64,000 nt of DNA from Eledone cirrhosa (Eukaryota): positions 1-64,000 of the forward strand of contig CAXHJY010000277.1 in assembly GCA_964016885.1 (NCBI GenBank), read 5' to 3'. The position numbers and the translations under genes are program-made. The notes below the pieces were generated by a model. That model saw only the letters and a list, made by a program, of their open reading frames with translations, was not told the DNA's origin and made no database searches. Positions 56-22,663 of the stretch are shown here, in pieces. The number at the start of each line of letters is the position of its first letter. Position 1 is the stretch's first letter.

Positions 56-135
56 TTCTACCTGGAGTTGTGACCGCTAGACAGTACTAGCAACTGGAAA
101 GACTGACGAAAACATTGTTCCCTCGGTCCGATTAG
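55..135 (+). repeat. Dispersed monomer related to the 31.9-33.6 kb satellite
   Basis: GGAGTTGTGAC...GACAGTA...GCAACTGGAAAGACTGACGAAAACATTGTTCCCTCGGTCC aligns by eye to the satellite unit GGAGTTGTGACTGACAGATAGTATCAACAATGGAAAGACC.ATGGAAACATTG. Confidence 0.6.
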
Positions 136-179
136 ACGAAAGTCGATGGATGCTTCTTTATGTATATATATAAGCATAT

Positions 180-3369: not shown

Positions 3370-3549
3370 GATGAGATTCTACAGGACTAGAACTGTTTCA
3401 TTCATTAGAAATCATCAGATTCCTGATGATTTCTAATGAATGAAACAGTTCTAGTCCTGTAGAATCTCATCTATATTAAAACTGTTATACTCTGCTATGT
3501 ATTGAGTACCTTACTTACTGTGGTTACCTCCGATTCAACCCGGAATAAC
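3365..3549 (+). mobile_element. Family E hammerhead fold-back element
   Basis: Perfect inverted arms 3365-3418 / 3423-3476 plus tail ending CCCGGAATAAC, in (TA)n. Confidence 0.8.
3417..3467 (+). ncRNA. Type I hammerhead ribozyme motif (family E)
   Basis: AGATTC-CTGATGA-T-TTC-TAAT-GAA-T-GAAA-CAG-TTCTAGTC-CTG-TA-GAATCT; predicted cleavage after GUA at 3461. Confidence 0.88.
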
Positions 3550-7873: not shown

Positions 7874-7944
7874 TATTTTATTATGCGCATTTCAAAAACA
7901 AATATCATCATGAGATGACATTTGCGTTTTCGTCAGATAAAATA
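7874..7944 (-). ncRNA. Type I hammerhead ribozyme motif (family H)
   Basis: Minus strand: TATTTTAT-CTGACGA-[AAAC GCAAATGTCATC TCAT GATGATATTTGT TTTT]-GAAA-TGCGCA-TA-ATAAAATA; palindromic stem III ATGCGCAT. Confidence 0.85.
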
Positions 7945-9971: not shown

Positions 9972-10007
<36 letters not shown>

Positions 10008-10210
10008 TATGTACACGTACATACATATATGTATACAGACGTACAGTAGTATGTATATATATATACATACATGCACACATATATATATGTACGTATGGAT
10101 TCACCGAACATTTATTATAATGCTCGGTGTGTTTGTAAACAAACGTCCCGTATTAAGCCGTACAGTGTCCAGCAACCATCGTTGCTCGTTTGTTCAACAC
10201 TGACAAAGGA

Positions 10211-10253
10211 ACACTGTACTAGTTTCAAGCTTATTAGCTATCGTCAGCAACGT
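10211..10253 (-). ncRNA. Minimal type I hammerhead ribozyme motif (family F)
   Basis: Minus strand: ACGTTG-CTGACGA-T-AGCT-AATA-AGCT-T-GAAA-CTAG-TA-CAGTGT. Confidence 0.85.
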
Positions 10254-10372
10254 ATAGCTTCCTGCCAGATCGTTGAACGTATATACTTACCTTATGCATA
10301 TTAACGGCTGAGTAGCCCAATTTGCATATCGAGTGGGTTAATCGGCCGGGTGCACCGAAAACGATAAACGGA

Positions 10373-10556
10373 AATAATTGTTTCTACTTTTGGCGCAAGG
10401 CCAGCAATTATCCCAGTATATTACTGGTACTTTATTTTATCGACCCCGTAAGGATGAAAGGCAAAGTTAACCTCGGCGGGATTTGAACTCAGATCGTAAA
10501 GGGACGTAACTATGCTGGAAAGCATGTCCGACATTCTACCGATACTGCCAACTCAC
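10373..10556 (-). mobile_element. tRNA-derived SINE inserted in family F element
   Basis: Reverse complement of 5275-5466 type. Confidence 0.9.
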
Positions 10557-10945
10557 AATGAAACGAAATTTCATTTCCCACTCTTAGTATGGCTGTTACT
10601 TAAATATAAGTATGTACACGTACATACATATATGTATACAGACGTACAGTAGTATGTATATATATATATACATACATGCACACATATATATATGTACGTA
10701 TGGATTCACCGAACATTTATGTGAATCCATACGTACATATATATATATATATATGCATGTATGTATATATATATATATATACATAATACTGTATGTCTGT
10801 ATACATATAATATATAATATATATATATATATTTATATATAATATATATATATATTTATATATAATATATATATATATTTATATATTGGAATGTCTTTGA
10901 AACTTCATGGATATTTACGGAATTACAAATATGTAAATATGTATG

Positions 10946-12821: not shown

Positions 12822-12859
12822 CGAGCTGAGGATCCGCTAAGGTGAAACAATTGTTCTCG
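12822..12859 (+). ncRNA. Minimal type I hammerhead ribozyme motif (family G)
   Basis: CGAG-CTGAGGA-T-CC-GCTAA-GG-T-GAAA-CAATTG-TT-CTCG; palindromic stem III ACAATTGT. Confidence 0.8.
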
Positions 12860-13100: not shown

Positions 13101-13147
13101 CTTCTACAGGACTAGTACTGTTTCATTCAGATGAAATCTTCAGGAAG
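13101..13147 (-). ncRNA. Type I hammerhead ribozyme motif (family E)
   Basis: Minus strand: CTTC-CTGAAGA-T-TTC-ATCT-GAA-T-GAAA-CAG-TACTAGTC-CTG-TA-GAAG. Confidence 0.85.
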
Positions 13148-13172
13148 ATTTCATCTGAATGAAACAGTACTA

Positions 13173-13219
13173 CTTCCTGAAGATTTCATCTGAATGAAAC
13201 AGTACTAGTCCTGTAGAAG
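13173..13219 (+). ncRNA. Type I hammerhead ribozyme motif (family E)
   Basis: CTTC-CTGAAGA-T-TTC-ATCT-GAA-T-GAAA-CAG-TACTAGTC-CTG-TA-GAAG. Confidence 0.85.
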
Positions 13220-14062: not shown

Positions 14063-14392
14063 ATATTAAATAAATGGAAACTATATTTATAAAACCATAT
14101 TTATTTTATTATATATATTTCAAGGGTACCAACACAACATTGGTACGCTTTCATCAGATAAAATACAAAGTTTGTTTTATAAATAGGGACGTACCCATGA
14201 GAATATATACTCTTGAAATATGTACCCTTGAAAAATATATAATAAAATAAATATGGTTTTATGAATATAAATATAATTTCCATTTATTTAATATCATTGA
14301 ATATTTAATCCAGTTAAATGTTGAGTGCTCTAAATCAGTTATAAACATTTATATTTGTCGGACTTCCAACAAATTAAATAGCCCTTATACTT
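14057..14392. mobile_element. Family B fold-back element
   Basis: Inverted arms 14057-14128 / 14222-14299 and tail with GTTGAGTGCT. Confidence 0.8.
14102..14165 (-). ncRNA. Type I hammerhead ribozyme motif (family B)
   Basis: Minus strand: TATTTTAT-CTGATGA-AAG-C-GTACCAA-TGTTGTG-TTGGTAC-C-CTT-GAAA-TATATA-TA-ATAAAATA. Confidence 0.88.
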
Positions 14393-17404: not shown

Positions 17405-17444
<40 letters not shown>

Positions 17445-17446
<2 letters not shown>

Positions 17447-18007
17447 AACGGAAAATATGAAAGGAAATTTCATTTCCCACTCTTAGTACGGCTGTTACTT
17501 AAATATAAGTATGTATACGTACATACATATATGTATACAGACGTAAAGTAGTATGTATATATATATATATATATATATACATACTACTGTACGTCTGTAT
17601 ACATATATGTATGTACGTGTACATACTTATATTTAAGTAACAGCCGTACTAAGAGTGGGAAATGAAATTTCATTTCATTTTTTCCGTCTATCGTTTTCGG
17701 TGCACCAGGCCGATTAACCCACTCGATATGAAAATTAGGCTGCTCAGCCGTTAATATGCATAAGGAAAGTATATACTTTCGGACGTTCAATCATCTGGCA
17801 GGAAGCTATACGTTGCTGACGATAGCTAATAAGCTTGAAACTAGTACAGCGTGCCTTTGTCAGTGTTGAACAAACGAGCAACGGTGGTTGCTAGACACTA
17901 CGGCTTAATACGGGATGTTTGTTTACAAACACACCGAGCATTATAATAAATGTTCGGTGAATCCATAAGTACATGTATGTGTATATATATATACATACTA
18001 TTGCACG

Positions 18008-18015
<8 letters not shown>
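17445..18015 (+). mobile_element. Family F retrozyme-like element (inverted arm plus 414-nt terminally redundant unit)
   Basis: 17445-17555 inverted relative to 17582-17687; 17582-17601 recurs at 17996-18015; HHR inside. Confidence 0.8.
17810..17852 (+). ncRNA. Minimal type I hammerhead ribozyme motif (family F)
   Basis: ACGTTG-CTGACGA-T-AGCT-AATA-AGCT-T-GAAA-CTAG-TA-CAGCGT; palindromic ACTAGT; predicted cleavage after 17846. Confidence 0.88.
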
Positions 18016-18054
<39 letters not shown>

Positions 18055-18111: not shown

Positions 18112-18354
18112 TATAAAGAAAAAGACATGAAATCGAAAATGCAACTGGAGTCTTATTTTTTTTTTAAATATATATATTTATTTGGTTCCTTTTCAAAAGG
18201 TGAGTCGAGATGGAGGGTCTGTGGTTTTTCTCAAAGAAAAACCACAGACCCTCCATCTCAACTCACCTTTTGAAAAGGAACCAAATAAATATATATATTT
18301 AAAAAAAAAATAAGACTCCAATAGCATTTTCAATTTCATCTCTTTTTCTTTATA
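18112..18354. repeat. Near-perfect inverted repeat, ~120-bp arms, 3-nt loop
   Basis: ...GTGGTTTTTCT-CAA-AGAAAAACCAC... centre at 18232-18234. Confidence 0.9.
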
Positions 18355-22356: not shown

Positions 22357-22359
<3 letters not shown>

Positions 22360-22530
22360 CGTACAGTAGTATGTGTATATATGCATACATGCACACATGT
22401 TTACAAAACAAACCGAGCATTATAATAAATGTTCGGTAAACCCATACGTACATATATATGAGTGTGCATGTATGTATGCATATACATACTACTGTACGTC
22501 TGTATACATATACGTATGTACGTATACATA
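22357..22530. mobile_element. Family F fragment with fold-back
   Basis: AGACGTACAGTAGTATG arm, ACCGAGCATTATAATAAATGTTCGGT block, inverted TACTACTGTACGTCTG. Confidence 0.65.
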
Positions 22531-22663
22531 GTTATATTTATATATATATACACACACGCACATAAACAATACACACACACATTTTATACCACTCTCAAGT
22601 ATGAAACTAAAAACCATATCATTTGTACTGCTTCTGTTTTTTTTGTTCTCTGTTCATTTATTC

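What the first reader, a model, noticed from the sequence alone, without database searches (positions are those of the whole stretch)
17445..18015. Family F copy 2 independently confirms a 414-nt period with a different permutation
Seen: opposite orientation to copy 1. TACTACTGTACGTCTGTATA (17582) recurs as TACTATTGCACGTCTGTATA (17996), the intact HHR is at 17810-17852, and an inverted arm lies at 17445-17555. Start and end points differ from copy 1, and a third fragment is at 22357-22530. The unit itself contains TA/CA microsatellite-like segments at the junctions.
Basis: partly seen in the sequence, partly recalled or inferred. Interest (0 to 1): 0.7.

Follow-up and report, generated by a model that had tools for sequence, protein, structure and literature searches.

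The report
Two-armed hammerhead repeat with Penelope ends
A non-coding repeat of about 420-440 bases with a predicted self-cutting RNA motif is scattered through this animal genome, often as mirror-image copies whose two outer ends fall at two fixed sites, which likely records a Penelope-type jumping-gene enzyme copying one RNA, probably a circle, from both sides of a DNA break.

Summary
The coordinates are right and the repeat is real; the reading needs correcting. Copy 2 is one insertion of an abundant non-coding family (1,416 first-look candidates) with a type I hammerhead. 414 nt is this copy's period only: 19 other measurements give 422-444, and copy 1 is another subfamily (about 422 net of a 178-nt insert). 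The 'permutations' are not random. 3' ends cluster at two sites 56 nt apart that run into (TA)n; 5' ends scatter. In two-armed insertions one arm ends at each site: 33 of 35 here, 26 of 26 typed in a young 466-nt sister family. That is the Penelope inverted/tail footprint, shared by a young 713-aa Penelope-type element of this genome. Arms of up to 11 turns share insertion-private variants, and template-level changes are skewed A>G (12 vs 2 T>C). Both point to an RNA template with a monomer-to-multimer step, probably a circle; some insertions show mixed units. No RNA data; partner not identified. Verdict: a new non-LTR retrozyme (non-autonomous Penelope-type) family that makes a proposed but unshown copying step testable. 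The scan noted this architecture before on other DNA of this genome.

The parts
17407..17443 (.). Left (TA)n target tract
17444..17567 (-). Inverted arm; its 3' end at 17444 is end site 2 (unit position 110)
17568..18015 (+). Forward arm: one full unit (17582-17995, subfamily A with the 8-nt insert) plus about 20 nt of a second turn; ends short of the usual site 1
17628..17635 (+). End site 1 (unit position about 54), TA-like, just after a hairpin; read through in this arm
17685..17691 (+). End site 2 (unit position 110), TA-like, just after a hairpin; read through in this arm
17809..17853 (+). Type I hammerhead motif: helix I 7 bp, helix II 4 bp, helix III 2 bp with palindromic loop; predicted cut after 17846
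18012..18048 (.). Right (TA)n target tract
9998..10810 (-). Copy 1 (subfamily B): main arm ends at site 1 (9998), interrupted by a 178-nt repeat at 10379-10556; short inverted arm from about 10721
22357..22540 (+). Third copy: two short arms, no hammerhead; the forward arm ends near site 1

Best explanation
This is one insertion of a non-coding, hammerhead-bearing retroelement that a Penelope-type RT/endonuclease likely copies into (TA)n tracts from both sides of a DNA break, starting each arm at one of two fixed sites on what is probably one circular RNA. Shown: tandem units, two fixed 3' ends running into (TA)n, scattered 5' ends, head-to-head arms with one end of each type, and haplotypes shared by both arms. 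Inferred: tandem copies are transcribed; paired hammerheads cut out monomers; a host ligase closes them; a dimeric Penelope protein cuts TA-rich DNA and primes from both ends with 3-6 nt of TA microhomology; each RT runs round the RNA for a fraction of a turn up to 11 or more turns; the two cDNAs are joined at their truncated ends. Some insertions likely used multimeric or mixed templates, and some later grew into satellite arrays.
For: Ends: 141 of 198 chain ends at two sites, 114 of those 141 followed by a TA run; 122 of 155 non-read-through anchors by a second method; 28 contigs of another run leave the unit at 17691 into (AT)n (may be the same sample). One end of each type: 33 of 35 and 26 of 26 typed of 28 in the sister family, p about 4e-8 and 3e-8. 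A 713-aa RT/GIY-YIG-type element with many open ORFs has the same target, two end sites 88 nt apart, and one of each in 4 of 4 two-armed copies. One template per insertion: 36 of 39 insertions with two or more typed units are single-subfamily though A:B is 65:71; 16 of 17 units identical in one young insertion; 9 private variants fixed across all covering turns in 7 insertions, 6 of the 9 in both arms. RNA step: template-level A>G 12 vs T>C 2, p 0.006, control C>T 9 vs G>A 10. No pile-up of 5' ends at the cut site: 4 of 122 vs 3.1 expected; sister 1 of 53 vs 1.3. 21 of 97 dispersed insertions hold two consecutive intact cores.
Against: Mixed units: 3 of 39 insertions join both subfamilies; common transitions are discordant in 39 of 348 same-arm comparisons against a 4% background; 10 private variants recur in only some turns of 8 young insertions, with period 3 in two and in register across arms in one. 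A pure monomer circle does not give that. All three window copies have one atypically short end, a form not seen at the other anchors. No pLTR homology to any of three Penelope-type families examined. The hammerhead is not the minimum-energy fold of its 71 nt (z 0.58), covariation is weak (63 of 500 shuffles), and Rfam gave no hit at gathering score. The raw A>G excess came with a T>G excess, and distinct site-alleles show no skew (61 vs 53). In the unbiased subset 3 of 42 starts lie at the cut site vs 1.05 expected (p 0.09).
Confidence: 0.6

Rival explanations
1. Same Penelope-driven, two-ended insertion, but the template is always an uncut linear multimer transcribed from tandem loci; no circle is needed, and units are homogenised later at the DNA level.
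For: In vitro, unprocessed RNA is the main substrate of a lizard Penelope and the hammerhead is dispensable (PMC11167929). Unit-level variants recur with period 3 or in register across arms; 3 of 39 insertions mix subfamilies; long arrays exist.
Against: Private variants fixed over up to 18 units and both arms of very young insertions need a monomer-to-multimer step. Neighbours in the long arrays differ by 6.2-7.0%, turns within insertions by 4.0%, and all 120 typed array units are subfamily B while 65 of 136 dispersed units are A, so those arrays are not the direct source (dispersed copies were picked by likeness, which lowers their divergence).
Confidence: 0.25
2. The unit is the solo pLTR of an autonomous Penelope family not yet found, and the copies are its 5'-truncated insertions.
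For: Retrozyme units match pLTRs in Xenopus (10.64898/2026.07.22.740005). Only three of the genome's Penelope-type families were compared. One locus has the unit 8 nt upstream of a truncated Penelope ORF (L145).
Against: In 120 loci the sequence upstream of a full unit is another unit, an inverted arm or host DNA, and I saw no shared ORF there. L144 is two separate insertions, and L145 can be a nested insertion in a TA tract.
Confidence: 0.1
3. One reading: a viroid-like circle of fixed 414 nt is integrated at random permutations.
For: More than one turn per copy; branched circular fold; copies differ in start and end.
Against: Two fixed 3' ends and the one-of-each rule; period 414-444; copies 1 and 2 are different subfamilies.
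Confidence: 0.03
4. A DNA-level satellite, MITE or low-complexity artefact with no RNA step.
For: Palindromic copies resemble terminal inverted repeats; TA/CA tracts lie in the unit; long arrays evolve by local duplication.
Against: The two ends are unequal by rule, arm lengths vary freely, 5' junctions scatter, there is a strand-specific A>G skew, and the core is intact in 122 of 146 dispersed units.
Confidence: 0.02

Closest known systems
Metazoan non-LTR retrozymes (Cervera and de la Pena 2020, PMC7229834; Li, Clavereau and Pollet 2026, 10.64898/2026.07.22.740005)
   Same: Non-coding tandem unit within the 150-450 bp range, type I hammerhead, low GC, no LTR; proposed mobilisation by Penelope-like elements through circular RNA.
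   Different: Expression and circles not tested here. The inverted two-armed form with fixed ends is not described in the parts read ('inverted' has 0 hits in PMC7229834). No pLTR homology found.
Penelope-like element insertions (Craig et al. 2021, PMC8557442; Frangieh et al. 2024, PMC11167929)
   Same: 5' truncation, partial tandems, inverted 5'-truncated copy, a tail often at one end only, microsatellite bias, two adjacent RT start sites, both DNA strands cut and extended, dimer predicted.
   Different: No ORF; tail 56-59 nt rather than 30-40; both start sites share TA microhomology with the target, whereas the lizard element starts at a non-homologous site; arms can be many turns long.
Non-autonomous Chlamys elements such as MRC1 (PMC8557442, passage)
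   Same: Non-coding, Penelope-mobilised, multicopy head-to-tail insertions.
   Different: Those resemble their autonomous partner at the 3' end; no such resemblance was found here.
Canonical metazoan type I hammerheads (Cervera and de la Pena 2014, PMC4209133)
   Same: Helix I about 6 bp, helix II 4 bp, helix III 1-2 bp with a small palindromic loop, expected to act as dimers.
   Different: A U.U opposition flanks helix II where G10.1-C11.1 is typical; activity untested.

Membership tests
Non-LTR retrozyme | Tandem units of 150-450 bp | tested here: met
   414-444, about 420 in arrays; the sister family is 466-476, slightly above
Non-LTR retrozyme | Type I hammerhead in consecutive units | tested here: met
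   Core intact in 122 of 146 dispersed and 74 of 115 array units; two consecutive intact cores in 21 of 97 insertions. Copy 2 itself has one. No Rfam gathering hit.
Non-LTR retrozyme | No coding capacity, no LTR/PBS/PPT | tested here: met
   No ORF of 120 aa or more over copy 2; no terminal direct repeats beyond the tandem turn. PBS and PPT were not searched separately.
Non-LTR retrozyme | Self-cleavage | not testable with these tools
   Motif and fold only
Non-LTR retrozyme | Expressed as linear and circular RNA | not testable with these tools
   No RNA holder listed; only indirect genomic signs
Non-autonomous Penelope-like element | 5' truncation with partial tandems and an inverted 5' copy | tested here: met
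   51 of 97 dispersed insertions have both strands; starts scattered
Non-autonomous Penelope-like element | Two 3' ends (tail), often at one end only | tested here: met
   33 of 35; 26 of 26 typed
Non-autonomous Penelope-like element | AT-rich or microsatellite target | tested here: met
   114 of 141 ends followed by a TA run
Non-autonomous Penelope-like element | Sequence kinship with the pLTR or 3' end of an autonomous partner | tested here: inconclusive
   None with three families; other families not examined. Co-occurrence and shared footprint only.
Autonomous Penelope-like element | RT + GIY-YIG ORF | tested here: not met
   No ORF in the unit or in the multi-turn arms
Viroid-like replicon integrated at random | Random permutation of one fixed-length circle | tested here: not met
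   Fixed ends, variable period

The most novel reading that the evidence does not exclude
Both arms are written from a single circular, host-edited RNA by the two halves of a Penelope dimer, one half starting at each of two sites 56-59 nt apart and each rolling round the circle. The one-of-each end rule and the shared private haplotypes would then be a genomic record of rolling-circle target-primed reverse transcription, and would explain Penelope's inverted copies and one-sided tail in one step.
Probability: 0.4. Interest if true: 0.72.

Novelty: new member of a known kind. Interest (0 to 1): 0.45.

Why it matters
Two steps are proposed in the papers read but not shown there: that animal retrozyme circles are the templates of a Penelope RT (PMC7229834, Discussion), and how Penelope's tandem/inverted copies and one-sided tail arise (PMC8557442 calls these features undefined). 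This family and its very young sister give exact start sites, a strict pairing rule and template haplotypes, and the genome holds an intact candidate enzyme, so both steps can be tested in vitro. The window's own copy is an older, eroded example and adds little by itself.

Tried and rejected
Rfam at gathering score: no hit in the window. Local fold of the hammerhead: not favoured over shuffles. Sequencing runs: no RNA holder listed; small-share runs were laid but show only DNA-type contigs. Two own-genome DNA searches returned nothing, not even the query's own place, so they carry no information. Motif-based end typing gave 35 of 44, but the site-1 motif also matches a near-palindrome inside the unit and makes false calls; I rely on alignment typing. 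Partner search: the 713-aa family and two older families show no pLTR homology; the 713-aa ORF has no Pfam or PDB sequence hit, so its Penelope label rests on Atlas and homologue domain lists and on recalled motifs. The idea that unit and ORF form chimeras (2 of 19 non-seed loci) shrank on inspection: L144 is two insertions and L145 is undecidable. Raw A>G counts are confounded by shared ancestry; the sister-family spectrum is unrooted and was not used. A cut-site pile-up was tested twice and is not significant. Paper search was badly framed (general cephalopod papers) and says nothing. Recurrent single-unit variants at sister positions 316 and 364 were carried by my queries and were disregarded across insertions.

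Full report
Numbering: unit position u1 is window 17582 and u414 is 17995. The genome is 3.0 Gb in 1,796 contigs and the window is the whole first 64 kb of contig C304. My impression that the host is an octopus-like animal comes from recalled repeat types, not from a call.

OBSERVATION. Copy 2 reads: (TA)n, an inverted arm of 124 nt (17444-17567), a forward arm with one unit plus about 20 nt, (TA)n. The non-repetitive core finds 1,416 first-look candidates, and all 40 scored match at 95-100%, so low complexity is not the cause.

PERIOD. Among the first 30 loci and the window, 19 spacings other than this copy and copy 1 run from 422 to 444, median 430; arrays run near 420. Copy 1 spans 603 nt, of which 178 are an inserted repeat and 3 a duplication, leaving about 422. 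An 8-nt indel with linked changes splits the family into A (65 typed dispersed units) and B (71); copy 2 is A and copy 1 is B. So copy 2 does not confirm a 414-nt circle.

HAMMERHEAD. The motif folds as type I with helix I of 7 bp, helix II of 4 bp and helix III of 2 bp closed by a palindromic loop; the cut is predicted after 17846. PMC4209133 (passages) describes this shape as the usual metazoan form that works as a dimer. The core is intact in 122 of 146 dispersed and 74 of 115 array units. One helix I pair is U.G here and G.U in the sister family, but covariation is weak (63 of 500 shuffles), the local fold is not favoured and Rfam has no hit at gathering score. Activity is inferred.

ENDS. 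I pooled 120 loci from four searches (each returns only the best matches) into 109 sites, 97 of them dispersed. Of 198 chain ends, 76 fall at u44-59 and 65 at u96-118; 59 and 55 of these run into a TA repeat. The other 57 include breaks in TA tracts, palindromic self-matches and rearrangements. An anchor method gives 66 and 56 of 155 non-read-through anchors out of 320. Both sites end in TA-like letters just after a hairpin. 5' starts scatter: 4 of 122 lie at u262-270 against 3.1 expected, 3 of 42 against 1.05 in the subset whose query did not demand the hammerhead (p 0.09), and 1 of 53 against 1.3 in the sister family (array loci and L064 left out). Of 97 dispersed insertions, 46 show one strand only, 16 both strands with an atypical end, and 35 two typical ends; 33 of the 35 have one end of each type. 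The window's three copies each have one short atypical end; copy 2's left end is site 2, so the rule predicts site 1 on the right, where the arm stops about 34 nt early in TA-rich sequence.

SISTER FAMILY. A 79% match in one locus led to a very young family with a 466-476-nt unit, 82% identical over 364 nt. In 53 insertions or pieces, 28 are two-armed; 26 could be typed and all 26 have one end at position about 57 and one at about 116. One insertion has 11 plus 6 full units, 16 of 17 identical. Leaving out four older arrays, 9 variants seen in at most two insertions are fixed in all covering turns of 7 insertions, 6 of them across both arms; 10 others recur in only some turns of 8 insertions; 108 are singletons.

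TEMPLATE. For one template per insertion: 36 of 39 insertions with two or more typed units are single-subfamily, and 33 of 34 opposite-arm pairs agree. At transversion and indel sites discordance is 10 of 148 within an arm and 12 of 184 between arms, against 38% for random pairs (pairs are not independent). A new variant fixed over many turns of a young insertion needs a monomer-to-multimer step, which rolling round a circle gives directly (inference). Against a pure monomer circle: three insertions mix subfamilies, transitions are discordant in 11-12% of comparisons against a 4% background, and partial recurrences show period 3 (L224, C2a) or register across arms (L238). Multimeric circles, uncut transcripts, template switches or later duplication could each give that. 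Variants shared by all covering segments of an insertion are skewed A>G 12 to T>C 2 on the hammerhead strand (p 0.006; C>T 9, G>A 10), as A-to-I editing of an RNA template would give; unit-level variants show a weaker skew (82 to 57) and distinct alleles none. The circular fold is branched, z -6.0 and -9.9 against 40 shuffles, partly owing to simple repeats.

PARTNER. A flanking ORF led to a young family with many open 713-aa frames. It has no Pfam or PDB hit, but Atlas neighbours at 0.96-0.99 carry HTH_animal, RVT_1 and GIY-YIG and many of its homologues carry HTH_animal; with recalled motifs I read it as Penelope-type. It targets (TA)n, ends 130 or 42 nt before its ATG, and has one end of each type in 4 of 4 two-armed copies among 10 stretches. 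Its copies are about 97-98% alike, close to this family's age. Its pLTR shows no homology to the unit, nor do those of two older families. It is a candidate by footprint and age only.

KNOWN SYSTEMS. PMC7229834 (abstract, passages, Discussion) defines non-LTR retrozymes, shows their circles, and proposes that an RT makes tandem cDNA from them, with Penelope elements as candidates. The 2026 preprint (parts 1-3 of 5) links them to pLTRs in vertebrates and says the mechanism is open. PMC8557442 (passages) gives the Penelope footprint: partial tandems, an inverted truncated copy, a tail often at one end only, microsatellite bias, and non-autonomous multicopy forms. PMC11167929 (parts 1-2 of 4) shows two internal RT start sites, cutting and extension of both strands, a predicted dimer, and a hammerhead that is dispensable in vitro. 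PMC5680766 was seen as passages. It works like a non-autonomous Penelope element and meets every retrozyme feature testable here. Searches listed no paper on this family or on the one-of-each rule in a retrozyme; the library lacks most subscription papers, and I read no supplements (the model figure of PMC7229834 and the end maps of PMC11167929 may bear on this).

EARLIER NOTES. I had reached this reading. That call showed eight notes on other pieces of this genome with a like picture (units of 310, 422 and 467 nt); a sequence look-up found nothing.

VERDICT. Observation confirmed, interpretation partly supported. A new member of a known kind, interest 0.45: ordinary as a class, useful because its ends and haplotypes make the circle-and-dimer model directly testable.

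Noticed in passing
G000:C257:10151-18494 (L201, L202); C2:171563701-171569556 (L214); C27 (L249, L211); C11 (L203): Sister family with a 466-476-nt unit, 82% identical over 364 nt, very young (99-100%), with two-armed insertions of up to 11+6 full turns and ends at positions 57 and 116.
   Followed up: yes
L122-L151 (e.g. L133:1447-3585): Young Penelope-type family with many open 713-aa ORFs, period about 3,240 nt, (TA)n target, two end sites, and a hammerhead-like motif with A at core position 4 (read by eye). An older family (L153, L157, L160) has C there and a 3' end that shares 7 letters with end site 2.
   Followed up: partly
G000:C4:351.91-351.94 Mb; C28:109.96-110.01 Mb; C28:36.05 Mb; C1:300.72-300.74 Mb: Long satellite-like arrays of subfamily B units, neighbours 6-7% apart; the arrays' ends were not fetched.
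   Followed up: partly
window 3396-3445, 13121-13199, 36461-36479, 60043-60065: Another hammerhead-like family, twice on both strands close together (regex hits).
   Followed up: no
window 103-141, 943-962, 7890-7936, 12826-12847, 14118-14157, 27571-27599, 29183-29223, 46723-46746, 47160-47487: Further hammerhead-like motifs of several types; the one at 46723 resembles the motif downstream of the Penelope-type ORFs in L164-L175.
   Followed up: no
window 18112-18354: Near-perfect palindrome (120-nt arms, 96%, 3-nt spacer) ending in a TA tract on the right, directly right of copy 2; possibly the tail ends of another two-armed element.
   Followed up: no
window 10379-10556 and 19 further matches listed in the window: 178-nt SINE-like repeat that interrupts copy 1; the label SINE is my recall.
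   Followed up: partly
window 17996-18015, 10784-10810, 22357-22371: All three window copies have one arm ending within about 27 nt of the unit start, unlike the other anchors examined; erosion by TA slippage is my guess, a third start site is not excluded.
   Followed up: partly
L064:69-1397: Eight tandem partial units (from position 281) upstream of a full unit: a local sub-repeat without the hammerhead.
   Followed up: no
window 31911-33581: Tandem arrays of 124-nt and 93-nt units.
   Followed up: no
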